A program made the translations under genes and the position numbers. This document shows positions 2,514-27,067 of a DNA stretch of 64,000 bases, in pieces; position 1 is the first letter of the stretch, and each line of letters opens with the position of its first letter. The DNA is taken from positions 24,981-88,980 of the forward strand of contig JACQLQ010000004.1 in assembly GCA_016204045.1 (NCBI GenBank), in the 5' to 3' direction. Under the pieces are notes generated by a model, which searched no databases, was not told the DNA's origin, and saw only the letters and a list, made by a program, of their open reading frames with translations. The stretch is from Parcubacteria group bacterium. Its GTDB lineage: Bacteria > Patescibacteriota > Minisyncoccia > Phycocordibacterales > UBA2135.

Positions 2514-5500
2514 TTGGTGCCTATGGGAGACGAGCTTCTTTTTGAGGGTAAAAAATATGTGTCGGCAAGACGACTTGCTGAGGGAAGCAAATATTCAAGC
2601 GATCACTTGAGTCGACTTGCTCGTGCTAAAAAAATTGACGGTAGGCTTATCGGCCGCAATTGGTTTATCAACCCAGATTCAATAGAAGTCTACCAGCAAC
2701 AATTAAACGGGGATCATCTTTTCAAGGGCGGTGAAAAAAGTTTTGAAAATGAGCAAAGCCGGGAAGCCGACACTACTCAAACCAATAGCCCTAGCACAAT
2801 AGAGCCTACTCCAAACCCGTCCGAGCATGTACAAGTGGACACTCTGCAAAATCCAGTTATTGGAGAGAACGCCGCAGTTACAATCCCAATTACAACTGGT
2901 GTTGAGTTACTATCAGAAATTCCTGAACCATTAAGGACGGAAAGCGCTATAGAACTGACACCGCCTAGCATTGAAACAGATTCATGGGACAATCTCCTCC
3001 TCGGGTCATTAAAAGAGGAAGAAAACAAAAAAGATGTCGTCACAACAGCATCACCACTACCGACGCCAGCTTCGGTAGAACAACCTCTTACAAAGCGGGT
3101 AGCTGATGTTGAAGTCTCGAAAGAAACCGAAACTCCATCAGCATTCGAAAAGTTTCGGGGAACGGGAATGCAGATACTGCGACATGCCAGCAACCTACCT
3201 GTTCAGGCCTGGCAGGCGAGCATGCCATTTATTGAGCTAGGAAAACTGGCGAAAGGGGTTGTGACAGGGTTCCTCATGGTTTCCGCCTTGGGGGGTGGGG
3301 TATATCTGCTTAGAGATACTCCTTACACGACGTACACGACCCTGTTCTCGAACGTCCTAGTGGCAACTCAAGGTGGGGGAGAAAGAATAGCTTCGGTACT
3401 TGCTTCTGGGATGGAAAACGCGACACATCGCATTACGACAGTGGGCAAGGGAAGTATGGAAATCGCCACCCACCCCAACCACTTCTTTTCACGTACACAG
3501 GAAGTTCTAGCCCAAATCATCGATGTTGTCGGGGCAAGTGCTACATATGCATCTGATAGTATCCTGCGACAATACCACCAAATACACACTCGCATATCTG
3601 ATACGAAACAACTAACCGCCGCTCTGCTTGATATCCCGGGAGGTGTGGCTCGTAACCTGTATGACACGATAACGTCACTTTTTGATGGCAATGATGCCAC
3701 GCCGACGACGCAAGACAAAAAAGGTACGCCTGTTACAATCACCGAGAAAGATATCGAAGAGGCGCGCCGGAAACTTCTTGGAGAAGAATCGGGCTCGACA
3801 CGGGCTAACCCCGCTATTGCGGAACCAACTACAAACACGCCGTTGAGGCAAGTCCAATCTGAAATTACACGGCTACAAAATGAGGTGAACCAACTTAAGC
3901 GTTCCGGGATAACGATTGAGTCACCTGTGGCACCCAAACTCGTGGAACGTATTGTCGAGCGCGTCATACCCGGTGTCACACAAACCAACCTCGATGATCA
4001 ACTGAATATCTTGCGAGGGGATATTGCATCTCTACGAAACTCCACCACACAACAAACAAACACAATATACCGTACAGTGGCTCTTTCTCAGAAAATCGAC
4101 CAACTGAACGATGTCACCCTAACTTCTATTACTGTCTCGGGAGTGTCAGGACTCACCAATGCAGACATCCCCGATGACATCACTGTATCGAACTACCTAC
4201 TCCTCACTGGAGGTACGATAAGTGGAAACTTACAAACGACAGGGACCCTCACTGCTTTTGAAGCGGCAACCATTCCGTCGTTCTCTGCCACATCAACAAC
4301 GAATGCTTCAACCATCAACTATCGTCTAGGTATTGGGACATCTTCTCCGTATGCCGCACTTGCTGTAGTGGGAGAAACAGTTTCCACCTACTTTACCGCA
4401 ACCTCAACTACAGCAACCTCTACTTTCTCTGGCCAAGCAGTCTTTAACAATACTCCTGGAGCTCCCCATACATTTGCTTCGTGGGCGACAGGAGTTGCTG
4501 GTGCACAACCGCTTGTTGCTCCACTTGTTGTGAACCCTGCCTCTGCGGGTTCTGATACCAACCTTATTTCCGCTTCTGTAAACGGTGCTGTACGGTTCTT
4601 GATTGACGCCGAAGGAGATATCTATGCGAACGGTATCTTCTCTACGGGAGGCACCACGCTCTCCACAACAACAGCGTCAACCTTTAGTGTGGAAAACAGT
4701 GCAACCCTTGGTGATGCTACGACGACCGACAGCACCTACTTCAACTCACGTATTGGATCTTCACTTATCCCCACCGTGAACAACCTTCTTGATATCGGAG
4801 ACACCACAAATGGGCTTGCGTGGAGGACGGGTATCTTTGCTACATCGCTCGGTATAGGAACGACCTCACCGTGGGGAGTACTCTCTGTAGACGCACCCTC
4901 TACTGCAAACAACATTACTCCCATCTTTGTCGTGGCTGATAAGGGCACCTCAACACCTTTTATCTACGTGTCTGGGATACAGGGAGATGTGGGAATCCGC
5001 ACTAATACTCCTACGTATGCCTTGGATGTGGCCGGTTCAATCCGCGCCACCTCGGTCATTGACGCTTCCTACTTTAGTGCTACCTCAACGACTGCAACCT
5101 CTACCATCGCAGGCTTCCTCGACATTACAGGGACGAACTCGACGTCTACCATATCGGGAGGACTCGACGTCCTTGGCGCTCTTCGTCTTGGCTCTTCACT
5201 CTCGCTCACGTCGACGACGGCAACCACCACACTCGCAGGAGGTCTCGCTCTAGAGACCACCGGCTTCGTCTATGATTTTTCGTCAAACAACGTAGGTATC
5301 GGTACTGCTGCTCCCGGAGCACAACTCCACCTTAACACCGCCTCAGGACAGAATGCCTTCCGCATTGGTTCAACGACCGATCAGTTCATTGTGAACAATG
5401 TAGGGAATGTGGGGGTTGGGACCACATCACCTGGTTCTCTCTTCTCTGTCGACGGTGGGGGAGCCCTCATCACCAACACCAGCTCAAGCCACTCCTTCTA

Positions 5501-7844
5501 TGTTGAAGATGTTGCGGATGATACGACACCGTTTGTGATTGCAAGTAATGGACAAGTCGGAGTAGGAACGACGACAATGACATCTAATATGGAGCTTGTC
5601 ATCCACGGAGATGGTCAAGACGCGAACATCCAACTAGGAAGAAGCAGCGGTGCCCTGTTTGATATTAGGGCAGGACAAGTGACCGAAGGAGTACTTTTCG
5701 CGCTGACCGGGGGCACGGGCAATATGGACTTTTATCACGGAAGTACGATGAATGTACGGTTTGCCAACAGTGGTAATGTTTTCTTCGGCGATTCTTCAAA
5801 TGCCAACATGACGCAGGGGCTTACGATTAACCAAGCTGGAGCCGATAACCAGGCACTTGCCTTTAAATCTTCTGACGTCTCTCACGGCATAACGTCTCTT
5901 GTCGAGCTAGATACCTATGGCGCTCTTGATAAGGCAAGTGGAGACGACGGGGGTATCGAAATCACCGGTTATTCAGAGGATACAGCCGCCTATGCTATCT
6001 ACCTTACGGGGTATGCAGGTACAGCGAACACTGCAAAATCTACGTCTGCTGTAGCACCCACTGTCGTGTATTCTGGAAAAAGAAGCGGCACCTCTGTTGC
6101 TTCCGTAGGTACTGATGGAAACCTGCTGGTAATTCAGGATGTTGGTAGTACCGAATGGCTCGTTGATGCTGAAGGCGATACTTGGCAGAGCGGGGGAGCC
6201 GGGTTTGCCACCTCAACTGCGTGGGGACTTGTCTCAATCGAAAACACCGGATCCGGACCCTCGTTCGTTGTTTCTGACCAGGCGAATGATACGAGTTCAT
6301 TTGTGATTAATACGGATGGAAAAGTCGGAATTGGAACAAACAACCCGTCGTATCCTCTTCACGCAAGCTCGTCTGCCACTGTCGCTGCGCAATTTAACGT
6401 TACCGACGGTACTACGCCTCAAACGGGGACAATTCTCCTCACAACTACTGAAGCGAGAACCGCTGGCCAAGGGGTCTCTATTTCCTTTAATACGCCGACA
6501 ACGGCACCTTCCTTTGAGGACTCTTCAGCAATAGGCGGCCTTGCAGAGGACTCCGTTACTGGGAATCGAGGGGGTTATCTCTCATTTTGGACAAGACCAA
6601 GTGGCGACACACTTCAAGAGCGGCTTCGTATCACAAGCGCAGGCGACGTTTGTGACGTTGGAGGAGTTGATGCCGACTTTACTGACTGCGCCTCTGATAG
6701 TGCTTTCAAGGAAGATATCGTCGGGTACGAATACGGATTGGAAGAACTCCTTGAGCTACGTCCCGTTGAGTTTAGTTGGAATGCGTTAGCACAAAGCAAG
6801 GGATATAAGGGCGGTGTGCGCGTCAACGGTTTTATCGCTCAGGAAGTGGAGACGGTCTTGCCATCCTGGATTAGCACTAACATAGAAGACGGTGGGTACA
6901 AAAAGATTGACGGTGCGGGGGATCTTCCACTTCTGCTCACCAAATCAGTTCAGGAAATTGCCGCCCGTATTAGTCTCACCTCCGCCCCCACCACAACCCC
7001 CTCCCTCTACATCGACTCGGAAGGTCGCCTCGGGGTGGGCACCACAACCCCCGCCTATACCCTCCATGTCATAGGAGATGTGGCGGCAGAAAGTTTTGTA
7101 AACATTTCAACCAAAGAGGCGAAAAAGGACATTTCGTACCTGGGGCATCTCCAGAAAGAATCGCTCTATGAAAAACTCAAAGACTTGGGGGTTGCAACAT
7201 ACTACTACGAACACGAAGATGCAAGCGATGACCCCGAACGTCTTGGGTTGATTGCTGAAGAAGCGCCTGAAGAGGTACTCGCAAAAGGGGGCAAGGGTGT
7301 AGACCTCTATAAACTTGTTACCGCTCTTCTAGCGGCATTCCAGACGCTTGCAGAGAAGGTGGAGAAGCTTGAAGATGCGGCCGTCACCGGTGTTGCGGCA
7401 GTAACTAATTCCTTTAGCGAATTATTCGCGAGCAAGTTGACCATAACCAACCTCTTGTGCTTGGGAGACACCTGTATCGGCGAATCGGAACTGCAGTCAC
7501 TCCTCACTAATGCGGGGTTAATCGCGACATCAACAACTCCAGTAGTTGAAACCCCAGACGATGAAGAAGCGCCCGATACTGAAGCGCCGACGATAACTAT
7601 TACCGGAGCGAACCCCGCGGAAATTGAGCTTAATGCCGCATATTCCGACAATGGTGCGACAGTCGCAGACAACGTAAACGGCAATCTCGGATATACAACA
7701 TACGTTAATGGCATCCTAATGACGCCAGTCCAACTTGATACAGCAACAACAACCACACATCTTATCGATTACGTGGCTACTGACAGCGCGGGAAACACTG
7801 CCACATCAACACGAACAGTGAATATTGTCGCGCCGCAAAATTAG
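2514..7844 (+). CDS. Giant (1776 aa) membrane-anchored surface protein: tail-fibre-like beta-helical repeats, two tandem intramolecular-chaperone (Peptidase_S74-like) domains and a C-terminal Ig-like DUF5011-like domain
   Basis: Single uninterrupted ORF. N-terminal about 230 aa is cytoplasmic. One TM helix (GVVTGFLMVSALGGGVYLL). At least 7 repeats of (V/I)G(I/V)GTxxPxxxLxV. Two copies of the S74 motif (S-D-S-A-F-K-E-D-I ... GFIAQEVETVLP and S-T-K-E-A-K-K-D-I ... LIAEEAPEEV). C-terminus TITITGANP...YVATDSAGNTATSTRTVNIV resembles DUF5011. Confidence 0.8.
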   Translation: MVPMGDELLFEGKKYVSARRLAEGSKYSSDHLSRLARAKKIDGRLIGRNWFINPDSIEVYQQQLNGDHLFKGGEKSFENEQSREADTTQTNSPSTIEPTPNPSEHVQVDTLQNPVIGENAAVTIPITTGVELLSEIPEPLRTESAIELTPPSIETDSWDNLLLGSLKEEENKKDVVTTASPLPTPASVEQPLTKRVADVEVSKETETPSAFEKFRGTGMQILRHASNLPVQAWQASMPFIELGKLAKGVVTGFLMVSALGGGVYLLRDTPYTTYTTLFSNVLVATQGGGERIASVLASGMENATHRITTVGKGSMEIATHPNHFFSRTQEVLAQIIDVVGASATYASDSILRQYHQIHTRISDTKQLTAALLDIPGGVARNLYDTITSLFDGNDATPTTQDKKGTPVTITEKDIEEARRKLLGEESGSTRANPAIAEPTTNTPLRQVQSEITRLQNEVNQLKRSGITIESPVAPKLVERIVERVIPGVTQTNLDDQLNILRGDIASLRNSTTQQTNTIYRTVALSQKIDQLNDVTLTSITVSGVSGLTNADIPDDITVSNYLLLTGGTISGNLQTTGTLTAFEAATIPSFSATSTTNASTINYRLGIGTSSPYAALAVVGETVSTYFTATSTTATSTFSGQAVFNNTPGAPHTFASWATGVAGAQPLVAPLVVNPASAGSDTNLISASVNGAVRFLIDAEGDIYANGIFSTGGTTLSTTTASTFSVENSATLGDATTTDSTYFNSRIGSSLIPTVNNLLDIGDTTNGLAWRTGIFATSLGIGTTSPWGVLSVDAPSTANNITPIFVVADKGTSTPFIYVSGIQGDVGIRTNTPTYALDVAGSIRATSVIDASYFSATSTTATSTIAGFLDITGTNSTSTISGGLDVLGALRLGSSLSLTSTTATTTLAGGLALETTGFVYDFSSNNVGIGTAAPGAQLHLNTASGQNAFRIGSTTDQFIVNNVGNVGVGTTSPGSLFSVDGGGALITNTSSSHSFYVEDVADDTTPFVIASNGQVGVGTTTMTSNMELVIHGDGQDANIQLGRSSGALFDIRAGQVTEGVLFALTGGTGNMDFYHGSTMNVRFANSGNVFFGDSSNANMTQGLTINQAGADNQALAFKSSDVSHGITSLVELDTYGALDKASGDDGGIEITGYSEDTAAYAIYLTGYAGTANTAKSTSAVAPTVVYSGKRSGTSVASVGTDGNLLVIQDVGSTEWLVDAEGDTWQSGGAGFATSTAWGLVSIENTGSGPSFVVSDQANDTSSFVINTDGKVGIGTNNPSYPLHASSSATVAAQFNVTDGTTPQTGTILLTTTEARTAGQGVSISFNTPTTAPSFEDSSAIGGLAEDSVTGNRGGYLSFWTRPSGDTLQERLRITSAGDVCDVGGVDADFTDCASDSAFKEDIVGYEYGLEELLELRPVEFSWNALAQSKGYKGGVRVNGFIAQEVETVLPSWISTNIEDGGYKKIDGAGDLPLLLTKSVQEIAARISLTSAPTTTPSLYIDSEGRLGVGTTTPAYTLHVIGDVAAESFVNISTKEAKKDISYLGHLQKESLYEKLKDLGVATYYYEHEDASDDPERLGLIAEEAPEEVLAKGGKGVDLYKLVTALLAAFQTLAEKVEKLEDAAVTGVAAVTNSFSELFASKLTITNLLCLGDTCIGESELQSLLTNAGLIATSTTPVVETPDDEEAPDTEAPTITITGANPAEIELNAAYSDNGATVADNVNGNLGYTTYVNGILMTPVQLDTATTTTHLIDYVATDSAGNTATSTRTVNIVAPQN

Positions 7845-16650: not shown

Positions 16651-17967
16651 CTAACGTATTCCCGGTAAGTACGACAGCGGGTTTAAATACCCATTTCTTG
16701 GCGAAAGTGGGAGCTTGAGGTAGGTCCCGCATACCTTACTTCGGTATTCGTCGGTGACCCGCACCGCGGAGGCGGCATAGACTGTAAAGTGCAGGTGCGG
16801 CCCCGTTGAATACCCCGTATTACCACTGTAGCCAATGACATCCCCAATCTTAACTTCTTGCCCAGGTTCGGCCCGAATGAGTGAGAGGTGCGCGTACAGC
16901 GTTGAGAGATTGTTGTAGTGCCGTATAAGCACCCATTTGCCGTATGAAGCCCCGTCGCAAGCCCTGTCTGTGTCTCCGGTGTCAGTGACCACTCCGTTGG
17001 CCGCCGCGCGTATAATAGTGCCGTTAGGAGCCCTGAGATCAATGCCGTTATGCCCACCACCGTTGTACACTTGCGGGTTCTGACTTGCGAACGGGGTGTT
17101 TCCGAAGTATTGCGTTATAGAAACGTTGTCCACCGGCCAGCGGAGAAGCGCGCCTATCTGCGGCAAGGAGTTAGGGTCAATCTCGAGCTGAATCTGAGAT
17201 TCAAAATCTCGAATTTCTCTTTCGAGCGCCTCTTTAAGCGCCTGCTTTTCTGAGAGTATCTTCTTGTAGTTGGACTCTTGGTTCTTGGTCTCTTTCAGCA
17301 ACGCGAGTTTCGATTTGCGGTTTGCTGTTTCCAATTCTTTTTGATCGACAAGACGCTCAGCCAAAGAAACATGCTCCTCTTTTTCTTTTGTCCGCAATGT
17401 TCGTTTCTCTTCGAGCGAAACCTTGAGTGTTTGTAGCTCTTTTACAGTTTTGTGCACGTTGGCCTGGAGTTGGCCGAGACTCTCAACGGTATCCCAAAAC
17501 ACAGAAAAACTATCTTCCCTAAGCAATATTTCGACCAAGGTCTCGGACTCAAGTTCATGAACACGGCGGACAATCTCGCTGATGGCGGCGCTGTTCTTCT
17601 CGATGCCGGCATTCTTGTCCTCGATCTCCCCCGTTAGGGTCGTAATGTTTCGAGATGCCGCCGCTATACGCTGCTCCGTCAAACGGATATCCGTTTGTAA
17701 TTTTTTTTCCGTCAACTCTATTTGGCCCACCGTATTCTGAAGTGTCTTGGCCTCTTTATCAAGTGCATTCAAACGCGACTCGTATCCCTTGATTTCCTTT
17801 TCGAGTTCGAGAATAAGAGAGTTCCGTTTTTCTATTTCGGAACGTAACGTCTCTGTCGTTTGGCCAAAGACAGTGCCACTCAAAGAAATTACCCCGCCGA
17901 CGAGAAGCAAGAGAAATGCGGCTCGTTGTAAAAACACGGATATCTTCATATTGATTGCCCTCATCAC
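16651..17967 (-). CDS. M23 family metallopeptidase with N-terminal coiled coil (EnvC/murein hydrolase-activator-like)
   Basis: 438 aa. Signal/TM, about 230 aa heptad-repeat region, C-terminal LytM motifs (HNGIDL..., YAHLS, GYSGNTGYSTGPHLHF). Confidence 0.8.
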   Translation of the reverse strand: MMRAINMKISVFLQRAAFLLLLVGGVISLSGTVFGQTTETLRSEIEKRNSLILELEKEIKGYESRLNALDKEAKTLQNTVGQIELTEKKLQTDIRLTEQRIAAASRNITTLTGEIEDKNAGIEKNSAAISEIVRRVHELESETLVEILLREDSFSVFWDTVESLGQLQANVHKTVKELQTLKVSLEEKRTLRTKEKEEHVSLAERLVDQKELETANRKSKLALLKETKNQESNYKKILSEKQALKEALEREIRDFESQIQLEIDPNSLPQIGALLRWPVDNVSITQYFGNTPFASQNPQVYNGGGHNGIDLRAPNGTIIRAAANGVVTDTGDTDRACDGASYGKWVLIRHYNNLSTLYAHLSLIRAEPGQEVKIGDVIGYSGNTGYSTGPHLHFTVYAASAVRVTDEYRSKVCGTYLKLPLSPRNGYLNPLSYLPGIR

Positions 17968-19316
17968 GACCTGAGCATTACAAGTGCGGTATTAAGTCGT
18001 TTGAGCGTTTCGTCTTTTCCAAATACATGCGCGAGCACAAATGGGTCTGGTGATTTGGCGAGCCCAGAGAGAGCATAGCGCATGGGCCACAAAACAGAAC
18101 CTCTACCCTTTTCTGTTGCATAATCCCACACATTCCCCTTCACATACTCTGCATTCCAGCTTGCTGGCGGTATTTCTGTAAGGATGTTGACAATATCTTT
18201 TAGATATTGTGTTGTGTTTTCTTGTGTCTCTCCTTTCCAAAACAAAACTTCTTTATTTGGGTATTCTGGAGCCTCAAAGAAATACCGGAGCTCTCCCCCG
18301 CTTACAAGTGTTTCGATGTCCCCAAACTTGAAGATGCGCTCCCGTAACACTGGCGCCATTTTTTGCAGACGATCATCGCTATATTGAGGAAGTGAGGTAA
18401 TTTCTTTTGGGAAAAACGCTTGTGCATAATCCCAAAATGCCACGTCAGAAAGTTTTCGTATGTGCTCGGCGTTTATCCAATCGAGTTTCTGAACATCAAA
18501 AACAGCTCCACTTTTATGAATTCGTTCGAGCGAAAATTGCTCTACGAGTTGTTCGAGAGTAAACACTTCTTGCCCTTCCTTCTCTGGAGACCAGCCGAGG
18601 AGTGCTAGAAAGTTGAGGAGCGCTTCTGGTAAATACCCAAGTTTCCCGTATTCACTAACGGGCATAGCACCATGACGTTTAGAGAGCTTACTTCGATCGG
18701 GCGCAAGGACGAGAGGTATGTGAACATAGATAGGTCGCGGGGCGCCGAGTGCTTCTTGGATCAAGATTTGTCGCGGAGTATTTGAGATGTGGTCCTCTCC
18801 GCGTATCACGTGCGTTACACCTGACTCAAAGTCATCGATGACCACGGCGAGATGGTAAAGCGGTTCTGTGCTACTCCGAGCAATGACAAAGTCGCCAAGC
18901 TCTGTGGTATCAAATGATATCTCGCCACGAACAAGGTCGGTGAACGTTACCTGTGTGCCCGGATTTCGAAATCGAATGACTTTCCCGCTCCCCTTTTCTT
19001 TTTCTTCTTCTGACTCATACGCCGCTCCGCTTACCAATAGCTTCTCCACGTGCTTTTTATATATATCCCCACGCTCACTCTGCCGGTACATCTCATCATG
19101 CGAAAGATTGAGCCACTTGAGACCGTCCAAAATATCCTCTTCAAACGCTTTGGTCGAACGCTCCCGATCAGTATCTTCAATGCGCAAAATCATCTTCCCA
19201 CCATACTTCCGCGCAGCAAGATAATTAAAGAGGGCCGTCCGGGCACTGCCGACATGTAAAGAGCCCGTCGGTGACGGAGCAAATCGGGTAATCATTTTTG
19301 GAGCATCTGATGCCAT
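17964..19316 (-). CDS. gltX: Glutamate--tRNA ligase
   Basis: 450 aa. HIGH-type motif (PSPTGSLHVGSAR), KMSKS-type motif (KLSKRHG). 4-bp overlap with the downstream M23 gene. Confidence 0.92.
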   Translation of the reverse strand: MASDAPKMITRFAPSPTGSLHVGSARTALFNYLAARKYGGKMILRIEDTDRERSTKAFEEDILDGLKWLNLSHDEMYRQSERGDIYKKHVEKLLVSGAAYESEEEKEKGSGKVIRFRNPGTQVTFTDLVRGEISFDTTELGDFVIARSSTEPLYHLAVVIDDFESGVTHVIRGEDHISNTPRQILIQEALGAPRPIYVHIPLVLAPDRSKLSKRHGAMPVSEYGKLGYLPEALLNFLALLGWSPEKEGQEVFTLEQLVEQFSLERIHKSGAVFDVQKLDWINAEHIRKLSDVAFWDYAQAFFPKEITSLPQYSDDRLQKMAPVLRERIFKFGDIETLVSGGELRYFFEAPEYPNKEVLFWKGETQENTTQYLKDIVNILTEIPPASWNAEYVKGNVWDYATEKGRGSVLWPMRYALSGLAKSPDPFVLAHVFGKDETLKRLNTALVMLRS

Positions 19317-19330
19317 GCTTTACACTACCA

Positions 19331-20455
19331 TTACTCATGCGAAAGGGCGATCCGGATCGCTTCGCGCGCTATCTTCTCCTCTGCCCCCGCCAGGAAAAAG
19401 GCCTTTGCCGCATCCCCCATCCTCTTCCGTTCGACTTCGTTTTGCATGAGTCGCTTAATCTCTGATACGAGGACGTGCGGCGTAAGGTTTTTCTCCTCAA
19501 TAACAACGCAAGCGCCAGAACGTGCATAGTTAAAGGCATTCCGTCGTTGGTGGTCGCCGTTTGACTCCGTTATGGGAATAATGATGCTGGGCAATCCCCA
19601 GGCTGCAATCTCAAAGAGACCTGAACCCGCTCGCGAAATGACGAGGGATGCCGCCCCAGCACTCATGCGAAGCGCCAGAGTATTTAAATACCCAAATGGT
19701 TTGTACCGCACTCGAAGTGTGTCGTCTTTTACAATTACATTTGCAAGATTTTTAACTTCCTCAAAATTGGCATCTCCCACTTGGTGAATGATCTGATACT
19801 CTGCCAAAATTTCAGGGAGTGTATCTAGAATGGTTTTATTGATGATTTGCGCCCCCTGTGAGCCCCCCCAAATGAGAACAACCGGTCTCCCCTCTTCCAA
19901 ATGCAAATACTCGTGAGCTCCCTCTTTTGCTGGGGTTTGAATTGCACGGCGCACGGGTTGGCCTGTGAGAGCAACATTATCTCCCTTGAAGTACTGGGCC
20001 GCCTCTGGCCAGGAAATAGCAATGCGATCTGCAAATGTGCCTGTCCAAAGATTGGTTCTGCCCGGCACAGAATCCGACTCATGGACAATGACGGGGATGC
20101 GCAAAATGCGTGCGGCCAAGACCGGGGGAAAGCTTACATACCCACCCTTTGAAATAACAACATCTGGGTAGATAAGGAACATCTTCCAAATCGCAACAAG
20201 AATACCCAATGCTGTTTTAAAAAGGTCAGTGATATTCAAAAGCGAAAAATAAGTCCTCAATTTACCTGCGGAGATACGCTTAAATGCAATACTGTTATCA
20301 AACAAGAGCGCCTCGTCAAAGGGGTTGTTTGACATGTAATACAGCCGGGGTGGGACCAGCTTCTCTTCTTTTGCAATAGTGTTGAGCGATTCTGCGACCG
20401 CAATAAGCGGATAAAAATGCCCTGCGGTGCCACCACCTGTAAAAACGATCTTCAT
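19331..20455 (-). CDS. murG: Undecaprenyldiphospho-muramoylpentapeptide beta-N-acetylglucosaminyltransferase MurG
   Basis: 374 aa. N-terminal GGGTAGH motif. GT28 C-domain (GGSQGAQ). Confidence 0.9.
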   Translation of the reverse strand: MKIVFTGGGTAGHFYPLIAVAESLNTIAKEEKLVPPRLYYMSNNPFDEALLFDNSIAFKRISAGKLRTYFSLLNITDLFKTALGILVAIWKMFLIYPDVVISKGGYVSFPPVLAARILRIPVIVHESDSVPGRTNLWTGTFADRIAISWPEAAQYFKGDNVALTGQPVRRAIQTPAKEGAHEYLHLEEGRPVVLIWGGSQGAQIINKTILDTLPEILAEYQIIHQVGDANFEEVKNLANVIVKDDTLRVRYKPFGYLNTLALRMSAGAASLVISRAGSGLFEIAAWGLPSIIIPITESNGDHQRRNAFNYARSGACVVIEEKNLTPHVLVSEIKRLMQNEVERKRMGDAAKAFFLAGAEEKIAREAIRIALSHE

Positions 20456-20466
20456 GTGTGTATGTA

Positions 20467-21558
20467 TTATGTCTTACTGTACCGTGAGATATTGAGGACG
20501 ATACCCACACCGGCAAGCACGACAATCAATGCCGACCCCCCATGAGAAACAAACGGGAGTGGCAAGCCAGAGAGTGGCAGTATTGCGAGCATTGCGCCGA
20601 TATTTGCAAAGGCCTGCCACCCTATGAGTATAACAATTCCGACAACCGTTAGTCGAGAAAAATAATCGGGGGCGTGTTTTGCAATAGAAAGGCCCCGAAA
20701 TACAAAGAGCATAAACAACGCTACCAAAACAACTCCCCCGATAAAACCAAACTCTTCGGCAAAGACGGCAAAAATGGAGTCTGCGATCGGCTCCGGCAAG
20801 AAACCAAACTTCTGGACGCTCTCGCCAAAACCCCGTCCCAATACACCACCGGAGCCGATGGCTATGAGCGATTGCTGAATTTGATACCCAATACCGAGAG
20901 GGTCGTGCGCTGGATTAAAAAAAGTGATAAGCCGCTCTTTAACGTACGGCTTAAAATACGCGAGAGCGAGGAGGCCACCTAGCGCCACCCCCCCGAGCGC
21001 AAAGATGTCTCGCCAACGGGCCCCACTGGCGACAAGGAGGGCGATCCCAGAACCAAAGATTAGTCCAAAAGTTCCCGTATCCGGCTGGAGGAGCAACAGC
21101 ACTCCCACGAGAGAAATAAGAACTAAAAAGGGTAGGATACTAAACGTAAAGGAATATACCCTTTCGCGCATAGCCGCAAGCCACGTCGCGAAATACAAAA
21201 TGAATCCAAGCTTTAGGATTTCTGATGGCTGGAACGAAAAAGGTCCGAGGGAGAGCCATCGAGAAGCACCGCCGTGTGAAAAACCGATTTCAGGAACAAA
21301 GACGAGCGCTGTCGTAATGAGTGACAGGATGAAAAACGGGAGCGCGTACCGTTTTATAAAACGGTAGTGAATCCTCGAAAACACAAACATCAAAAAGAGG
21401 CCGATACAAACCCCAACCGCCTGATTTGTGACCACGCTCTTGAACAGGGCGCCATCTCGAGCGAGAAGACTCAAGGCCGCAGAGAAAAATATAAAAAAGC
21501 CCCCAAAGAGAAGCGTGAGAACAATCCCTAGAAACCATTTATCAACGGGTTTGCGCAT
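20467..21558 (-). CDS. ftsW: SEDS family peptidoglycan polymerase FtsW/RodA
   Basis: 363 aa, 10 TM helices. C-terminal motif LPLSGLPLPFVSHGGSALIV. Confidence 0.88.
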   Translation of the reverse strand: MRKPVDKWFLGIVLTLLFGGFFIFFSAALSLLARDGALFKSVVTNQAVGVCIGLFLMFVFSRIHYRFIKRYALPFFILSLITTALVFVPEIGFSHGGASRWLSLGPFSFQPSEILKLGFILYFATWLAAMRERVYSFTFSILPFLVLISLVGVLLLLQPDTGTFGLIFGSGIALLVASGARWRDIFALGGVALGGLLALAYFKPYVKERLITFFNPAHDPLGIGYQIQQSLIAIGSGGVLGRGFGESVQKFGFLPEPIADSIFAVFAEEFGFIGGVVLVALFMLFVFRGLSIAKHAPDYFSRLTVVGIVILIGWQAFANIGAMLAILPLSGLPLPFVSHGGSALIVVLAGVGIVLNISRYSKT

Positions 21559-21583
21559 AGAACCAACAACTCACAACCTGCAA

Positions 21584-22645
21584 CTAACCAACGAGTGCGA
21601 GTATCACACCCAAAAGGGCGAAGATCGCTCCCAAGACCCAAAAACGCATTACCACCTTATACGGGGGCCATCCAAGCGCTTCAAAATGATGATGGATGGG
21701 GGCCACGCGAAAGATTTTCTTGCCGAAATATTTTTTCGAAATGAGCTGGAGAATATTTGAGCCGGAGGCGAGAAAGAGCGGAAACGCAATGAGAAAGAGC
21801 GGCAACACTGCATCTGTTAAAAACGCGATGACGGTGAGCGTGGTCGTCAGTCCGAGCATTCCCGTTTCTGACATATAGAAGCGCGCTGGCGGAATATTGA
21901 ACCAGAGAAATGCGAGGAGGCCTCCCGCAACAACAGTTGAGAACGCAGCAATATCGATTTGGTTTTGGAAAAAGGCGATCCCTGCAAAAGCTGCAAACAT
22001 GATTGCAAGCACTCCCCCAGCAAGGCCATCAATGCCGTCAATGATGCTCCCCGAGAAAAGTGCGAGCATTACTATCATAAAGAGCGGTATGAAAAGAAGT
22101 CCTAAATACACCTCGCCCAGAAAAGGCACCGCGAGACTTGCAACTCCGAGTTTTGCGAAAAACCACCAACCGCCCAAGGCACCGAGAGTCAGGACAACGG
22201 CAATACGTGTGCGAAGTGGCAATCCCCCACCCATGTGCTTCCCCTTACCTGTCACGACGAGAATGTCATCAACTAAACCAACGAGTGAAGCCGCAATCAA
22301 AGTAAAAAAGGGCAGCCATGTCTGATTACGAGAAAGGAAGTTTAACTTCTCCGCCTCTTCACTAGGAAACACTTCTTTGAGAGACCAGAAGAGAAGTGTG
22401 GTTATAGCGACAGATGCCCAAATCACGATACCCCCCATGCGTGGCACTTTTGTTTCCTGTTGCTGACTCGGGAGTGTGGGTATAATGCGCGCATCTTCCC
22501 CGCTTATAGTCTTGGTCTTTTGATCTTTCCGCCACAGCTTATATTTGTAGAGATAATGTGTAAGGAGTGGTGTTGCGGCAATACCTATAAAAAAAGCCAC
22601 CGCTCCGGGGACCATGACTTTGACAACGTCGAGAGCCTCTATCAT
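21584..22645 (-). CDS. mraY: Phospho-N-acetylmuramoyl-pentapeptide transferase MraY
   Basis: 353 aa. MraY motifs (DDILVVTGKGKHMGGGL, NAxNxxDGxDGL-like SIIDGIDGLAGG, HHHFE). Confidence 0.92.
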   Translation of the reverse strand: MIEALDVVKVMVPGAVAFFIGIAATPLLTHYLYKYKLWRKDQKTKTISGEDARIIPTLPSQQQETKVPRMGGIVIWASVAITTLLFWSLKEVFPSEEAEKLNFLSRNQTWLPFFTLIAASLVGLVDDILVVTGKGKHMGGGLPLRTRIAVVLTLGALGGWWFFAKLGVASLAVPFLGEVYLGLLFIPLFMIVMLALFSGSIIDGIDGLAGGVLAIMFAAFAGIAFFQNQIDIAAFSTVVAGGLLAFLWFNIPPARFYMSETGMLGLTTTLTVIAFLTDAVLPLFLIAFPLFLASGSNILQLISKKYFGKKIFRVAPIHHHFEALGWPPYKVVMRFWVLGAIFALLGVILALVG

Positions 22646-22671
22646 TCACAAACTATAGCATTGACCGTATA

Positions 22672-22727
22672 AACAAAAAAGAGCCCCCGCAGCCTCCGTG
22701 TCGAAGCTTTCGCTCGACACGGAGGCT
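22672..22727 (-). terminator. Intrinsic terminator of the GC-rich 558-aa gene (minus strand)
   Basis: Perfect 14-bp stem AGCCTCCGTGTCGA/TCGACACGGAGGCT, loop AGCTTTCGC. On the minus strand it is followed by GCGGGGGCTCTTTTTTGTTTAT. It sits between the 558-aa gene stop and the mraY start. Confidence 0.7.
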
Positions 22728-22795
22728 TTGGGAAGCCCTGCGCACCAGGTTAAGGTGCCAATCTACGCGGTTACTAAAGTGCTACTAGGGTGCGG

Positions 22796-24472
22796 TTAGG
22801 CGCTGGCGGAGCGAGTCTGCTCGCCGACGTCGTCACCTTCGGTCTCGGTCGCCGCGGCCGCCGCCTGCTGCTGCTTCTCGGTCGCTCCGAGGTTGCAGCG
22901 GAGGAAGAAGCGCGCGGGGTTGTTCACCCCCGAGTACCGCTTGCCGGTCTTGTCGTCCGGATCAAGCTCGTAGAAGGACGACCCGGCGGGGATCTCCGCG
23001 AGGAGCACGGCGTGACACGCTGCCACACCGTGGATGATGATGCGAGGCTTGTTGTCCTCGCCCACCACACGTTCCACCGCCATCGGGACCGTACCCAGCT
23101 TGGCGACCGTGGTCTTCGTCCGCGTACCGTCGCGAACGATCTCACCGTCCTTGTAGACGGGAAGCGTCGGCTCGAACTCCGAGACGACGAGGACCGCGAC
23201 GCCAGTGGCACCACCGTGGAAGTCGGCTGCGGAGATGAGCTTCTTGCCCTTCCCTGCGGCCTTCTTCGCGATGGTGGTCACCTCGGTCAGGGCATGCTCG
23301 GCGGCTTCCCGCTCCGCATTGGCGCGCTCGATCAGGACGCGCTCGTGCTTGAAGGCCCGAGACGCGATCATGAACGCGGCGAACGCCGTGCCCTTGTACG
23401 TGGTGCTCGCCTGCTTCGGCGTCAAGCCGAGGTCGGCGATCGCGACGGTGATGCCCGCTTCCGCGATCTGCGTGATCTTGTTGCGGAAGTAGGAGTTGCC
23501 GTGGCCGGCGACGAAGGTGACCTTGCCGTCGGCTGCGGTGACACGCACCTTGCCGCCGTCGTATTGATCGTCACCAGGGTCGGTGACGACGAGGTCACCT
23601 TCCCCACCCTTGTCCGCGACGCCGATGGCGTTGAGGTTCGGGGTGAGACCCTCGTTCAGGGCATCCAGGCTATCGCGCCAACGCTGGCTCGCTTCGCGAG
23701 CAAGCGCCGAGGCGAGATCGCCCAAGACCTCGAACGGGTTCTTGTACGCCGGCACCGCGACACCCTTGACGACGAGGTCCTTGGGCCACGTCGTCCGCAT
23801 GTCGGCTGCCGTCGCCTTGAACTCCGGCGACATCTCGATCCAGCGGTCGCGCCCGACCTTGACGACACCAACCTTGCGGGTGTTGCCGTCGGTGACCGGA
23901 CGCGCGACGCCGAGCGCAATGGCACGATCGGCGACGTGGCCGAGGTCGAACCAGTTGCTGGGGCACAGGAGGGCGATCGCCGTCACGTACGCGAACTTCG
24001 CGTGCCGCGAGATGACCGGCGCCTCATCGGGAGTGAACTGCCCGAAGGAGGCGTTGAAGCGCCGCTGGAGCGCCGAGTCGGCGTCGAGCTTGTCGCGACG
24101 AGCGCGCAGCATGTCCTTCTCCGTCGCCGTGCCACGAGTCGCGAGCTGGCTCGCGATCGCGAGACGGTCCGAACGCTGGCTCCAGACGATCTGGGCAACG
24201 CTGCCCGGAAGGGCATAGAGGACGGAGTTGAACGTGCTGCTCCGCTCGTCCATCTGCTGACGGCGCGCTTCCTCCGCACCGGTGTCCGGTGCGTCGGTAT
24301 GCGTGCCGCCGAGGTCGGCGTCGAGATCGAACACGAGCTTGTCGGTCGCCGCGGGGGCGCCGGCCTTCTTGGTCTGCTTCACGGACTGCTCCTTGGTGGG
24401 GTTGGTCTTGGCATGCTCCAACGCCTCCGCAAAGGAGGTCGTCGATTGACGGCGAGGAGTGCTCTTACCCAT
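22796..24472 (-). CDS. Hypothetical 558-aa protein, GC-rich (about 68% GC, extreme GC3); no recognisable domain
   Basis: The minus-strand ORF has diverse composition. The overlapping 601-aa plus-strand ORF is R/L/G/V-rich with no stop (antisense shadow typical of high GC3). Plausible RBS GAAGGAAACCCAAG upstream of the ATG. K/T/A-rich N-terminus, segments GHGNSYF and IIIHGVAACHAV. Confidence 0.65.
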   Translation of the reverse strand: MGKSTPRRQSTTSFAEALEHAKTNPTKEQSVKQTKKAGAPAATDKLVFDLDADLGGTHTDAPDTGAEEARRQQMDERSSTFNSVLYALPGSVAQIVWSQRSDRLAIASQLATRGTATEKDMLRARRDKLDADSALQRRFNASFGQFTPDEAPVISRHAKFAYVTAIALLCPSNWFDLGHVADRAIALGVARPVTDGNTRKVGVVKVGRDRWIEMSPEFKATAADMRTTWPKDLVVKGVAVPAYKNPFEVLGDLASALAREASQRWRDSLDALNEGLTPNLNAIGVADKGGEGDLVVTDPGDDQYDGGKVRVTAADGKVTFVAGHGNSYFRNKITQIAEAGITVAIADLGLTPKQASTTYKGTAFAAFMIASRAFKHERVLIERANAEREAAEHALTEVTTIAKKAAGKGKKLISAADFHGGATGVAVLVVSEFEPTLPVYKDGEIVRDGTRTKTTVAKLGTVPMAVERVVGEDNKPRIIIHGVAACHAVLLAEIPAGSSFYELDPDDKTGKRYSGVNNPARFFLRCNLGATEKQQQAAAAATETEGDDVGEQTRSASA

Positions 24473-24600
24473 CTTGGGTTTCCTTCTTCAGTGCTCCTTC
24501 GGAACATCCCACAATGGGATGTCTCGTGGAGCGATAAACATACTCAAGGTTACACGAGACCCTGCCTTCTTAGGGGCAAGGTATCTGTAGTATAGTATAG

Positions 24601-24642
24601 CAAATTAAAAGAGCCCTGTCAAGTGCTACCTTGACAGGGCTC
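24601..24642 (-). terminator. Intrinsic terminator of the beta-CASP gene (minus strand)
   Basis: Perfect 13-bp stem GAGCCCTGTCAAG/CTTGACAGGGCTC, loop TGCTAC. On the minus strand it is followed by TTTTAATTTG. Confidence 0.7.
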
Positions 24643-24749
24643 GGGGGGTGCCGATATGGCCTTATTTCGTCAAGCGAGGACGGCAAGTGGAGACGCTTTA
24701 GGCGGCTCCACTTGCTCCGAGCGAAGACGAAATATAAGACGAAGTGCTT

Positions 24750-26210: not shown

Positions 26211-26281
26211 GAGTCTTACTCAAGTATACTACTATAAAATAAAGAAAAAGTCAAATCGACTACGTTTTGGGCTGTATATGC

Positions 26282-26319
26282 AAAAACCCTCCGCTGCGCG
26301 TGGAACGCACAGCAGAGGG
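26282..26319 (-). terminator. Intrinsic terminator of the 202-aa gene (minus strand)
   Basis: 14-bp stem (CCCTCCGCTGCGCG/CGCACAGCAGAGGG, two positions G-U in the minus-strand RNA), loop TGGAA. On the minus strand it is followed by TTTTTGCATATAC. Confidence 0.6.
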
Positions 26320-26334
26320 TGTGGCACAAAGTGC

Positions 26335-26943: not shown

Positions 26944-26984
26944 CGGGTTTCTCCTTCCGTAAAACAAGGTTCAGATACAAGTGA

Positions 26985-27012
26985 ATTTTATCATATTATA
27001 GACAAAAGTCAA
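26985..27012 (-). promoter_or_regulatory. Promoter-like site for the 202-aa gene: TTGACT-16 nt-TAAAAT (minus strand)
   Basis: Minus-strand sequence TTGACTTTTGTCTATAATATGATAAAAT lies about 40 nt upstream of the SD/ATG. It is near-identical over about 28 nt to the promoter of the native 194-aa gene at 36984..37011. Confidence 0.45.
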
Positions 27013-27041: not shown

Positions 27042-27067
27042 ATAATTATGAAAATATAATCAGTTTT

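What the first reader, a model, noticed from the sequence alone, without database searches (positions are those of the whole stretch)
2514..7844. 1776-aa single-pass surface giant with phage-tail-fibre-like architecture
The N-terminal about 230 aa is cytoplasmic and of unknown type, followed by one TM helix. The extracellular region is about 1500 aa and rich in Thr/Ser/Gly. It carries at least seven (V/I)G(I/V)GTxxP..L.V repeats of the kind found in beta-helical tail fibres or spikes. It ends with phage-type intramolecular-chaperone domains and an Ig-like DUF5011-like domain. Such giant adhesin-like proteins are candidate host- or partner-attachment organelles in small-genome, possibly epibiotic, bacteria. 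The cytoplasmic N-domain suggests transmembrane signalling or anchoring.
Basis: partly seen in the sequence, partly recalled or inferred. Interest (0 to 1): 0.6.

Follow-up and report, generated by a model that had tools for sequence, protein, structure and literature searches.

The report
Membrane-anchored phage-like fibre of a CPR bacterium
An ultra-small groundwater-type bacterium (Parcubacteria) encodes, among housekeeping genes, a 1773-residue membrane protein whose outer part is built like a phage tail fibre and whose inner end carries a DNA-binding-type domain, which makes it a concrete, testable candidate for how such bacteria grip other cells.

Summary
The ORF is real and intact (2523-7844, 1773 aa; 1776 aa from the TTG at 2514).
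- One transmembrane helix (residues 239-263).
- A Thr/Ser/Gly-rich ectodomain of about 1500 aa.
- Eight VG(I/V)GTxxP...L motifs, against about 0.07 expected by chance.
- Two Peptidase_S74 intramolecular-chaperone domains.
- A C-terminal Ig-like PF16403 domain.

New results:
- A profile of the repeats matches only the Bdellovibrio "mosaic adhesive trimer" (MAT) fibre crystal structures in the PDB. There the motif forms capping loops on a trimeric beta-helix.
- The "unknown" N-terminus is a confidently predicted excisionase/MerR-type winged helix-turn-helix, followed by a disordered acidic linker.
- This domain heads thousands of metagenomic proteins. All 45 genome loci recovered were Patescibacteria.
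- The gene sits in a conserved recR-dnaB / cysS locus, so it is not in a prophage.
- Against its syntenic orthologue, a tip plus first-chaperone cassette (about 1141-1483) is replaced (17-37% identity). Its flanks are 63-89% identical.

Best reading: a chromosomal, N-in membrane-anchored, self-processing trimeric adhesive fibre. This is a new variant of the phage tail-fibre/MAT kind. Trimerisation, cleavage, adhesion and DNA binding are all inferred, not shown.

The parts
2523..7844 (+). Whole gene. 1773 codons plus stop; an alternative TTG start lies at 2514.
   Evidence: The N-terminus is conserved in orthologues P0002 and P0003. The NCBI call P0001 starts 104 codons later and loses the first domain.
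2523..2720 (+). Residues 1-66: cytoplasmic winged helix-turn-helix of the excisionase/MerR (HTH_17) type.
   Evidence: AF2 with a 77-sequence alignment gives pLDDT 93-98 and topology b-b-a-a-b-b-a. Foldseek matches Pukovnik Xis (rmsd 1.8 A over 47 columns, prob 0.97), TraN (prob 0.89), BldC and RacA. Pfam HTH_17 scores 17.5 bits here and up to 27.7 bits (cut-off 27) in family members. A profile of the domain hits AM32/TraN at E 0.002.
2721..3236 (+). Residues 67-238: acidic, Pro/Glu/Thr-rich, predicted disordered cytoplasmic linker.
   Evidence: pLDDT is about 42. Net charge is -15. Identity to P0002 is only 35%.
3237..3311 (+). Residues 239-263: the single transmembrane helix, N-in orientation.
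   Evidence: It is the hydropathy maximum. AF2 predicts a helix at 239-263. K240 and K243 lie on the N side.
3312..3812 (+). Residues 264-430: helical juxtamembrane region of unknown type.
   Evidence: AF2 predicts helices at 268-387 with pLDDT 50-67. There is no Pfam match. The region is poorly conserved.
3813..4202 (+). Residues 431-560: conserved stalk, two heptad-patterned helices (441-460 and 487-526) around the motif VERIVERVIPG.
   Evidence: AF2 pLDDT is 80-93. The stalk is found in 58 of the 152 best representatives; 44 of those also carry the wHTH. There is a weak TolA_bind_tri hit at E 0.017.
4203..5942 (+). Residues 561-1140: fibre shaft with six capping-loop motifs.
   Evidence: Identity to P0002 is 63-83%, apart from a 147-aa insertion after residue 960 and a divergent stretch at 871-900.
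4326..4361 (+). Capping-loop motif 1 (residue 602, LGIGTSSPYAAL).
4848..4883 (+). Capping-loop motif 2 (residue 776, LGIGTTSPWGVL).
4989..5024 (+). Capping-loop motif 3 (residue 823, VGIRTNTPTYAL).
5292..5333 (+). Capping-loop motif 4 (residue 924, VGIGTAAPGAQLHL).
5409..5441 (+). Capping-loop motif 5 (residue 963, VGVGTTSPGSL).
5556..5597 (+). Capping-loop motif 6 (residue 1012, VGVGTTTMTSNMEL; P replaced by M).
5943..6692 (+). Residues 1141-1390: variable distal tip, the proposed receptor-binding part. It contains motif 7 (residue 1268, nt 6324-6359) and the Cys pair C1377/C1389.
   Evidence: PHROG tail-fibre families phrog_18345 (1239-1376, E 1.7e-13) and phrog_9942 (1195-1452) match here. 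Identity to the syntenic orthologue is 17-37%, while the flanks are 63-89%. IMG/VR phage fibres are 30-46% identical.
6693..6971 (+). Residues 1391-1483: first Peptidase_S74 intramolecular chaperone, with S1391-D-S-A-F-K1396.
   Evidence: Pfam scores 45.1 bits, and S1391 aligns to profile position 1. The motif was read directly from the sequence. SDxxxK is the catalytic motif according to PMC10769870.
6972..7106 (+). Residues 1484-1528: short second fibre segment with capping-loop motif 8 (residue 1503, nt 7029-7064).
   Evidence: phmmer against the PDB hits Bd3182 (8ojn), E 3.8e-5, aligned over 1484-1538. Identity to P0002 is 78%.
7107..7397 (+). Residues 1529-1625: second S74-type chaperone, with S1529-T-K-E-A-K1534.
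   Evidence: Pfam scores 20.6 bits, below the cut-off of 22; profile position 3 aligns to residue 1531, so position 1 falls on S1529. phrog_5555 matches at E 1.8e-7. tblastn to the chaperone-bearing tail fibres of Bacillus and Geobacillus phages gives 34-37% identity at E 5e-7. Identity to P0002 is 89%.
7398..7592 (+). Residues 1626-1690: linker with the Cys pair C1646/C1651 and an acidic Pro/Thr stretch.
   Evidence: Identity to P0002 is 80%.
7593..7826 (+). Residues 1691-1768: Ig-like domain, PF16403 (Bact_surface_Ig-like, formerly DUF5011).
   Evidence: Pfam scores 34.8 bits against a cut-off of 27. The same C-terminal domain is found in the CPR giants P0002, L003, L005 and L036.

Best explanation
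This is a chromosomal gene of a Parcubacteria (CPR/Patescibacteria) bacterium. It encodes a type II (N-in) single-pass membrane protein that most likely assembles into a long trimeric fibre on the cell surface.

Proposed anatomy, from inside to outside:
- A cytoplasmic excisionase/MerR-type winged HTH (1-66) on a disordered acidic tether of about 170 aa.
- One transmembrane helix (239-263).
- A helical juxtamembrane region, then a conserved heptad-patterned stalk (431-560). The stalk would nucleate trimerisation and span the wall.
- A beta-helical shaft of about 830 aa (561-1390). It is of the kind solved for the Bdellovibrio MAT fibres and punctuated by capping loops.
- A variable tip (about 1141-1390).

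Proposed working (every step is inferred):
1. The S74 chaperone domains fold the trimer from the C-terminal side.
2. They then cut themselves off at S1391 (general base K1396) and S1529 (K1534).
3. This leaves a membrane-anchored fibre of about 1390 aa with the variable tip exposed, and releases fragments 1391-1528 and 1529-1773. The second fragment carries the Ig-like domain.
4. The tip binds a surface ligand of a partner or host cell.
5. The wHTH ties the fibre base to DNA or to a cytoplasmic partner.

Shown here: the domain identities, membrane topology signals, repeat homology, genomic context, mosaic divergence and family distribution. Not shown: trimerisation, cleavage, adhesion and DNA binding.
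For: Fibre-type ectodomain:
- A profile built from the eight repeats hits only Bdellovibrio MAT fibre structures in the whole PDB: Bd2133 at 2.4e-15, Bd3182 at 5.8e-12, Bd1334 at 1.9e-8 and Bd2439 at 0.005.
- The full protein hits Bd3182 at 3.8e-5.
- In those crystal structures the motif V-G-G/N-pi-x-x-P-x-x-x-L forms capping loops on a trimeric beta-helix. MATs are displayed on the predator's surface (PMC10769870).
- Two S74 domains both keep Ser and Lys(+5). PHROG tail-fibre profiles match, as do phage chaperone-bearing tail fibres.

Chromosomal, not phage:
- The order recR-dnaB-[gene]-cysS-S41 protease-rplI is conserved in L001, L002 and L043, with DnaB 57-89% identical.

Membrane anchor:
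- There is one TM helix with Lys residues on the N side.
- All four Cys lie in the ectodomain, in two close pairs.

Mosaicism typical of receptor-binding proteins:
- Against P0002, the wHTH is 89% identical, the shaft 83%, S74-2 89% and the Ig domain 73%.
- Residues about 1141-1483 are only 17-37% identical.
- The nearest relatives of that cassette are small S74 'tail fiber domain' proteins and IMG/VR phage fibres.

N-terminal domain:
- The wHTH fold is predicted with high confidence and matches Xis, TraN, BldC and RacA, with sequence support.

A real family:
- Residues 1-560 find 2425 representative proteins.
- 44 of the top 152 combine wHTH, TM, stalk and fibre motifs.
- All 45 genome loci recovered are Patescibacteria.
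Against: - No trimer could be modelled; only monomer AF2 was available, and the single-sequence model of 1231-1773 failed at pLDDT 34.
- In characterised phage and MAT fibres the S74 domain is the extreme C-terminus. Here both copies are internal, with 383 and 245 residues from the predicted cleavage sites S1391 and S1529 to the C-terminus. So either cleavage discards a conserved Ig-like module or the domains do not cleave.
- The second S74 copy scores below Pfam's cut-off and has Thr in place of Asp.
- The wHTH of this particular protein scores below the HTH_17 cut-off, and the Foldseek E-values are not significant for the 560-residue query.
- The L002 orthologue is split into at least three ORFs, so the protein may be dispensable or the assemblies may be error-prone.
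- The organism's host and lifestyle are unknown, and there are no expression or localisation data.
Confidence: 0.6

Rival explanations
1. Contact sensor or nucleoid tether. The fibre is chiefly the extracellular input of a one-protein transmembrane device. Engagement of the fibre would change what the cytoplasmic wHTH does on DNA, as in ToxR/CadC-type membrane-bound regulators. Alternatively, the wHTH would tie the chromosome to the attachment site, as RacA does at the Bacillus pole. This is compatible with adhesion but shifts the main function to DNA.
For: - The N-terminal domain has the fold of the DNA-binding proteins Xis, TraN, BldC and RacA.
- R34 is invariant, and basic residues are enriched at positions 16, 17, 37 and 41 across 48 family members.
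- The topology (DNA-binding domain, one TM helix, large outside domain) is that of ToxR-like regulators (established knowledge).
- The domain always sits at the extreme N-terminus, ahead of a TM helix, in hundreds of CPR proteins.
Against: - A disordered acidic linker of about 170 aa between the wHTH and the membrane is a poor conduit for a conformational signal.
- The wHTH is not of the OmpR/ToxR type; no Trans_reg_C match was found.
- No operator, target gene or DNA repeat was looked for or found.
- HTH folds can also be protein-binding modules, for example the RodZ HTH binding MreB (established knowledge).
Confidence: 0.15
2. Structural surface coat. The protein would be a bulk envelope component (a fibrillar layer, spacer or glycocalyx scaffold) with no specific partner recognition. 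The phage-like modules would be used only as a robust way to build a rigid trimer.
For: - The composition is very Thr/Ser/Gly-rich and acidic (net -46 over the shaft), typical of heavily exposed, possibly glycosylated envelope proteins.
- The gene lies among housekeeping genes, about 9 kb from the M23 peptidase gene and about 11-14 kb from murG, ftsW and mraY.
- Related giants reach 3400-5200 aa with 21-44 repeats, more like spacers than tips.
Against: - The localised replacement of the tip plus chaperone cassette between close orthologues is the signature of a ligand-binding end, not of a uniform coat.
- The solved relatives (MATs, phage fibres) are adhesins.
Confidence: 0.15
3. Phage-derived element. 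The gene would be a tail fibre of a prophage, a tailocin or a recent phage insertion rather than a cellular surface protein.
For: PHROG tail-fibre matches, S74 similarity to Bacillus phage fibres, and the NCBI name 'tail fiber domain-containing protein'.
Against: - Both neighbours are housekeeping genes, and the locus is syntenic in three other genomes.
- No other phage gene lies within about 10 kb on either side.
- No tRNA was found in the window.
- GC content over the gene (0.47-0.51) matches the local background.
- The wHTH-TM-stalk N-terminus is absent from the IMG/VR phage fibres that share the ectodomain modules.
Confidence: 0.03

Closest known systems
Bdellovibrio bacteriovorus MAT (mosaic adhesive trimer) fibres, e.g. 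Bd3182, Bd2133, Bd1334, Bd2439 (Caulton et al. 2024, PMC10769870)
   Same: - A cellular, non-phage fibre of a bacterium that lives on other bacteria.
- The same capping-loop repeat; these are the only PDB matches of the repeat profile.
- An S74 chaperone with the SDxxxK motif.
- A mosaic, exchangeable tip.
   Different: - MATs have a signal peptide and a conserved beta-rich N-terminal domain of about 130 aa, are about 1000 aa long, and carry a terminal S74 or adhesive tip.
- This protein instead has a cytoplasmic wHTH, a TM helix and a helical stalk as its base.
- It is 1773 aa long and has two internal S74 copies followed by an Ig-like domain.
- CPR is absent from the paper's list of MAT-like proteins in other lineages.
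Phage tail fibres and tailspikes with a C-terminal intramolecular chaperone (K1F endosialidase 3GW6, T5 L-shaped fibre pb1 4UW8, Bacillus phage Flapjack-type fibres)
   Same: The S74 chaperone domain with its Ser-Lys dyad, the trimeric beta-helical shaft logic, PHROG tail-fibre profile matches, and 34-37% identity to Bacillus phage chaperone domains.
   Different: It is not in a phage genome and has no virion-attachment N-terminus. It is membrane-anchored. Its chaperone domains are internal and duplicated.
MYRF (myelin regulatory factor) family
   Same: One polypeptide combines a DNA-binding domain, a membrane span and an S74-type self-cleaving trimerisation domain. The same capping-loop motif is reported in MyRF.
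   Different: In MYRF the S74 domain lies between the DNA-binding domain and the membrane, on the cytoplasmic side, so cleavage frees the transcription factor (established knowledge). Here the S74 domains are outside the cell, more than 1100 residues beyond the TM helix, and cannot release the wHTH.
Excisionase/MerR-like winged-HTH proteins (mycobacteriophage Pukovnik Xis 4J2N, TraN/AM32 4P0Y/6G1T, BldC 6AMK, RacA 5I44)
   Same: The fold of residues 1-66 and a sequence-profile match to AM32. The tandem copies in the short CPR paralogues recall the internal dimer of TraN.
   Different: Those are soluble DNA-binding proteins. Here the domain is fused through a long linker to a TM helix and a giant ectodomain, and carries a family-specific signature: Y24, D27, Y28, L32, R34, W47.
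ToxR/CadC/TcpP-type membrane-bound one-component regulators
   Same: The same topology: an N-terminal cytoplasmic DNA-binding domain, a single TM helix, and an extracytoplasmic domain.
   Different: Those use an OmpR-type wHTH with a short linker and a small sensor domain (established knowledge). No Trans_reg_C match was found here, and the outside part is a 1500-aa fibre.

Membership tests
Peptidase_S74 / intramolecular chaperone auto-processing domain proteins | Match to Pfam PF13884 above the gathering score | tested here: met
   Whole protein 56.4 bits. First copy alone 45.1 bits; second copy alone 20.6 bits, below the cut-off of 22.
Peptidase_S74 / intramolecular chaperone auto-processing domain proteins | Catalytic SDxxxK motif (Ser nucleophile, Lys five residues later) | tested here: met
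   S1391-D-S-A-F-K1396 aligns to profile position 1. The second copy reads S1529-T-K-E-A-K1534: Ser and Lys are kept and Asp is replaced by Thr. Motif definition from PMC10769870.
Peptidase_S74 / intramolecular chaperone auto-processing domain proteins | The domain forms the extreme C-terminus and is shed after trimer folding | tested here: not met
   From the predicted cleavage sites, 383 residues (S1391, first copy) and 245 residues (S1529, second copy) run to the C-terminus, including a conserved Ig-like domain.
Peptidase_S74 / intramolecular chaperone auto-processing domain proteins | Autoproteolysis and trimer dependence | not testable with these tools
   Needs recombinant expression with S1391A/S1529A mutants, or multimer modelling.
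Bdellovibrio MAT fibres | Beta-helix shaft with repeated capping loops V-G-G/N-pi-x-x-P-x-x-x-L | tested here: met
   Eight copies. The repeat profile hits only Bd2133, Bd3182, Bd1334 and Bd2439 in the PDB, at E 2.4e-15 to 0.005.
Bdellovibrio MAT fibres | Signal peptide followed by the conserved beta-rich N-terminal domain of about 130 aa | tested here: not met
   The N-terminus is a wHTH, a disordered linker and a TM helix at 239-263. There is no signal peptide at the N-terminus.
Bdellovibrio MAT fibres | Trimeric fibre displayed on the cell surface and involved in prey handling | not testable with these tools
   Inferred only from homology and topology.
Phage tail fibre / receptor-binding protein | Encoded in a phage or prophage next to tail or baseplate genes | tested here: not met
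   The gene is flanked by recR-dnaB and by cysS, an S41 protease and rplI. The locus is syntenic in L001, L002 and L043.
Phage tail fibre / receptor-binding protein | Sequence match to tail-fibre profiles | tested here: met
   phrog_18345 at E 1.7e-13, phrog_9942 at 7.3e-13, phrog_5555 at 1.8e-7. IMG/VR fibres are 30-46% identical to the tip.
HTH_17 / excisionase-MerR-like winged HTH | Match to Pfam PF12728 above the gathering score | tested here: inconclusive
   This protein scores 17.5 bits against a cut-off of 27. Family members score 27.7, 25.3 and 25.2 bits.
HTH_17 / excisionase-MerR-like winged HTH | Fold: HTH plus a beta-hairpin wing, superposable on Xis/BldC/RacA/TraN | tested here: met
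   AF2 pLDDT 93-98 for residues 1-60. Foldseek gives Xis at rmsd 1.8 A over 47 columns (TM-target 0.66, prob 0.97), TraN at prob 0.89, BldC at TM-target 0.69 and RacA at 0.52. E-values of 0.2-1.3 are not significant for the long query.
HTH_17 / excisionase-MerR-like winged HTH | DNA binding | not testable with these tools
   Needs EMSA or DAP-seq.
ToxR/CadC-type membrane-bound regulators | OmpR-type winged HTH (Trans_reg_C) at the N-terminus | tested here: not met
   No such Pfam match even at E up to 10; the domain is of the HTH_17 type.
Bact_surface_Ig-like (PF16403, formerly DUF5011) | Pfam match above the gathering score | tested here: met
   34.8 bits against a cut-off of 27, residues 1691-1768, covering the full profile 1-71.

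The most novel reading that the evidence does not exclude
The wHTH-TM-stalk module would be a Patescibacteria-wide, so far undescribed base. It would wire phage-like receptor-binding fibres directly to a cytoplasmic DNA-binding domain. Each fibre would then be a one-protein contact sensor or chromosome tether that marks and organises the host-attachment site. The conserved gene pair 'short tandem-wHTH membrane protein + giant wHTH fibre' would be its core apparatus.
Probability: 0.15. Interest if true: 0.85.

Novelty: new variant of a known kind. Interest (0 to 1): 0.6.

Why it matters
How CPR/Patescibacteria attach to and choose their hosts is largely unknown; type IV pili and unnamed 'adhesins' are the usual suggestions (PMC11665869).

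- This gene gives a concrete candidate with solved structural relatives.
- It predicts two exact self-cleavage sites (S1391 and S1529).
- It points to an exchangeable tip cassette that could set host range.
- It shows that the fibre logic of phages and of the predator Bdellovibrio also occurs in CPR, on a different, lineage-specific membrane anchor.
- The wHTH anchor family is large (2425 representative proteins). I found no paper describing it in the searchable library.

Tried and rejected
- Single-sequence AF2 of residues 1231-1773 was useless (mean pLDDT 34).
- NCBIfam gave no match. Rfam and ARAGORN found no RNA genes in the window.
- tblastn of the four modules against the window found no paralogue in the 64 kb.
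- The look-up of encoding contigs did not have P0001 on record.
- The promoter/terminator scan of 2150-2600 gave one sigma-70-like site (2465-2493), which is no more than chance.
- Searching 5.8 billion proteins with the variable tip cassette found no close donor (best 44% identity over 22% of the query). A recent transfer therefore cannot be shown; only that the cassette differs from the orthologue's.
- Phage genomes match only the second S74 copy.
- Literature searches found nothing linking CPR with S74, tail fibres, giant proteins or HTH_17, and neither did the two CPR papers I checked.
- A MYRF-like release of the DNA-binding domain was considered and rejected, because the S74 domains lie on the other side of the membrane.
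- A prophage origin was rejected on synteny.
Full report
**Observation**

The + strand carries one uninterrupted ORF from 2514 (TTG) to 7844. The ATG at 2523 gives 1773 residues, and all numbering below counts from it. It coincides with the start of the orthologues (MGDELLF.. / MSSELSF..).
- NCBI's own call of this gene (P0001, 1669 aa) starts 104 codons later and loses a conserved domain.
- The only strongly hydrophobic stretch is 239-263.
- The ectodomain is Thr/Gly/Ser-rich.
- The motif [VIL]G[IV][GR]T occurs eight times. 2000 composition-preserving shuffles gave a mean of 0.07 and a maximum of 2.
- Pfam finds Peptidase_S74 twice, and PF16403 (the former DUF5011) at the C-terminus.

**Organism and context**

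The identical protein is recorded as 'MAG: tail fiber domain-containing protein [Parcubacteria group bacterium]' on a 268.6-kb contig.
- Upstream, on the other strand, lie dnaB and recR.
- Downstream lie cysS, an S41/PDZ protease, rplI, an MFS transporter, a cation-efflux protein, a PduO-type adenosyltransferase, a methyltransferase and an M23 peptidase.
- Further on are gltX, murG, ftsW and mraY.
- There are no tRNA or Rfam matches, and GC content over the gene matches the background.
- The order recR-dnaB-[fibre gene]-cysS recurs in three other Patescibacteria MAGs, with DnaB 89, 75 and 57% identical.

This is a stable chromosomal locus, not a prophage.

**Ectodomain**

I built a profile from the eight repeats and searched all PDB sequences. 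It returned only the crystal structures of the Bdellovibrio 'mosaic adhesive trimer' fibres:

| Protein | PDB entry | E-value |
|---|---|---|
| Bd2133 | 8OND | 2.4e-15 |
| Bd3182 | 8OJN | 5.8e-12 |
| Bd1334 | 8OML | 1.9e-8 |
| Bd1334 | 8ON4 | 2.4e-5 |
| Bd2439 | 8OL4 | 0.005 |

- The whole protein also hits Bd3182.
- Caulton et al. (PMC10769870) show that these proteins are meandering trimeric beta-helices displayed on the predator's surface.
- In them the motif V-G-G/N-pi-x-x-P-x-x-x-L forms capping loops on the helix edges. The same motif occurs in phage-type S74 proteins and in MyRF.
- PHROG tail-fibre families cover residues 1195-1452 and 1520-1618.

**Chaperone domains**

- The first S74 copy (1391-1483, 45.1 bits) starts with S1391-D-S-A-F-K1396, the SDxxxK catalytic motif.
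- The second copy (1529-1625) scores 20.6 bits, just under Pfam's cut-off. It is supported by phrog_5555 (E 1.8e-7) and by 34-37% identity to the chaperone-bearing tail fibres of Bacillus and Geobacillus phages. It reads S1529-T-K-E-A-K1534.
- Between the two copies lies a 45-residue fibre segment with the eighth capping loop.
- After the second copy come a Cys-containing linker and the Ig-like domain.
- In characterised phage and MAT fibres the chaperone is terminal. Here it is internal and duplicated.
- An S74 domain followed by a C-terminal Ig-like domain recurs in other CPR giants: P0002, L003 and L036.
- If the domains cleave as their motifs predict, the cell keeps a fibre of about 1390 residues ending just after the Cys pair C1377/C1389. 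It sheds fragments 1391-1528 and 1529-1773. This is an inference.

**Mosaicism**

Compared with the syntenic orthologue P0002 (L001), identity varies sharply along the protein:

| Region | Identity to P0002 |
|---|---|
| wHTH | 89% |
| Shaft 561-860 | 83% |
| Second chaperone | 89% |
| Ig domain | 73% |
| About 1141-1483 (tip plus first chaperone) | 17-37% |

- P0002 also has a 147-residue insertion after residue 960, and residues 871-900 are unrelated.
- The nearest relatives of the divergent cassette are small (250-600 aa) S74 'tail fiber domain' proteins and IMG/VR phage fibres, at 24-46% identity.
- No close donor exists in the databases searched.
- Replacement of a tip together with its cognate chaperone is what is seen in phage receptor-binding proteins and in MATs. 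It is my main reason to place ligand binding at 1141-1390.

**N-terminal part**

I ran AF2 on residues 1-560 with a 77-sequence alignment.
- Residues 1-60 come out at pLDDT 93-98 with the order strand-strand-helix-helix-strand-strand-helix.
- Residues 67-237 are disordered (net charge -15).
- The TM helix is at 239-263, followed by low-confidence helices to residue 387.
- Two confident helices at 441-460 and 487-526 show a 3-4 hydrophobic spacing.
- Foldseek's best superpositions are mycobacteriophage Xis, TraN, BldC and RacA.
- A sequence profile of the domain hits AM32/TraN (E 0.002).
- Pfam HTH_17 reaches its cut-off in relatives but not in this protein.

So the 'unknown' cytoplasmic domain is an excisionase/MerR-type winged HTH.

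**Family**

- Residues 1-560 find 2425 representatives in 1.84 billion proteins.
- Among the best 152, 44 have wHTH plus stalk (up to 2401 aa) and 94 are short wHTH proteins (median 320 aa) with a TM helix.
- Fourteen have the stalk without a detected wHTH. A few of those have a signal-peptide-like hydrophobic N-terminus instead, one is NCBI's truncated call of this same gene, and several look like fragments.
- Of the 138 that carry the wHTH, 92 have it in tandem.
- A pattern scan of 185,579 species genomes returned 45 loci, all Patescibacteria.
- In 31 of 31 loci that hold a short wHTH protein, the next ORF on the same strand is a large wHTH protein. One example is a 4407-aa protein with 33 capping loops, an S74 domain and a weak Hint match.
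- The window's gene is a 'solo' member of this family.

**Mechanism and rivals**

The best-supported reading (0.6) is a membrane-anchored, chaperone-folded, self-trimming trimeric adhesive fibre. Its exchangeable tip binds a partner cell, and the wHTH fixes the base to DNA or to a partner protein. The rivals are:
- A device whose main output is on DNA, either a ToxR-like sensor or a RacA-like tether (0.15). The DNA-binding fold favours it; the long floppy linker counts against it.
- A non-specific structural coat (0.15). The composition favours it; the tip cassette replacement counts against it.
- A phage-derived element (0.03). Synteny and the membrane anchor count against it.

**Novelty**

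- The tail-fibre and DUF5011 domains are already recognised by automatic annotation.
- The fibre kind itself is known from phages and from Bdellovibrio.
- What I could not find described is its occurrence in CPR and the wHTH-TM-stalk base.
- Also undescribed are the internal tandem chaperones with a trailing Ig module, and the short/giant gene pair.
- I therefore rate this a new variant of a known kind.

**Limits**

- No multimer modelling was possible.
- All functional steps are inferred.
- The L002 orthologue is split into at least three ORFs, which may reflect assembly errors or decay.

Noticed in passing
Loci L006-L029, L031-L034, L037, L040, L044 (e.g. L023:9950-10792 and L023:11404-24627): There is a conserved CPR gene pair. 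In 31 of 31 loci that hold a short (about 250-320 aa) wHTH-TM protein, the next ORF 270-720 bp downstream on the same strand also begins with the wHTH. That ORF is large, 198 to 4407 aa, and many copies are cut off by the locus end. L014 and L016 have three such genes in a row.
   Followed up: partly
L023:11404-24627: A 4407-aa wHTH-anchored giant with 33 capping-loop motifs and an S74 domain at 4200-4256, followed by a weak Intein_splicing/Hint match at 4334-4397. L038 holds an open frame of more than 5200 codons with 44 motifs, cut at both ends.
   Followed up: partly
Representatives P0009-P0152: 92 of the 138 wHTH-bearing representatives carry the domain in tandem. This recalls the internal-dimer DNA-binding protein TraN/AM32, which is also the only PDB sequence hit of the domain profile.
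   Followed up: partly
L002:8387-14792: The syntenic orthologue in this MAG is split into at least three ORFs: 1373 aa; 388 aa ending inside the start of an S74 domain; and 247 aa with the Cys linker and two Ig-like repeats. This could be an assembly error, gene decay or phase variation.
   Followed up: no
window 2523-2834: The NCBI gene model for this protein (P0001, 1669 aa) starts 104 codons downstream of the conserved start and omits the whole winged-HTH domain.
   Followed up: yes
window 22000-28000: A block with GC 0.57-0.60 against about 0.49 elsewhere. Overlapping long ORFs lie on both strands (22790-24595 + and 22796-24472 -). ORFs 26278-27045 and 27068-28321 have no Pfam match. An RNase J-like metallo-beta-lactamase lies at 24750-26210. 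It may be a foreign or fast-evolving region.
   Followed up: no
window 17964-22645 and 28416-29345: gltX, murG, ftsW, mraY and an S11 D-Ala-D-Ala carboxypeptidase are present, plus an M23 peptidase at 16651-17967. The organism therefore makes peptidoglycan that the fibre stalk would have to cross.
   Followed up: no
window 6651-6689 and 7458-7475: The protein has only four cysteines, in two close pairs. C1377/C1389 lie immediately before the predicted cleavage site S1391, and C1646/C1651 lie in the linker before the Ig domain. They may form extracellular disulfides.
   Followed up: no
L046-L053 (IMG/VR contigs): Viral contigs encode ordinary tail fibres (405-2222 aa). Six of the eight carry the capping-loop motif, and L049, L050 and L051 have an SDxxxK motif within 100 residues of the C-terminus. 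None has a wHTH or a TM start.
   Followed up: partly
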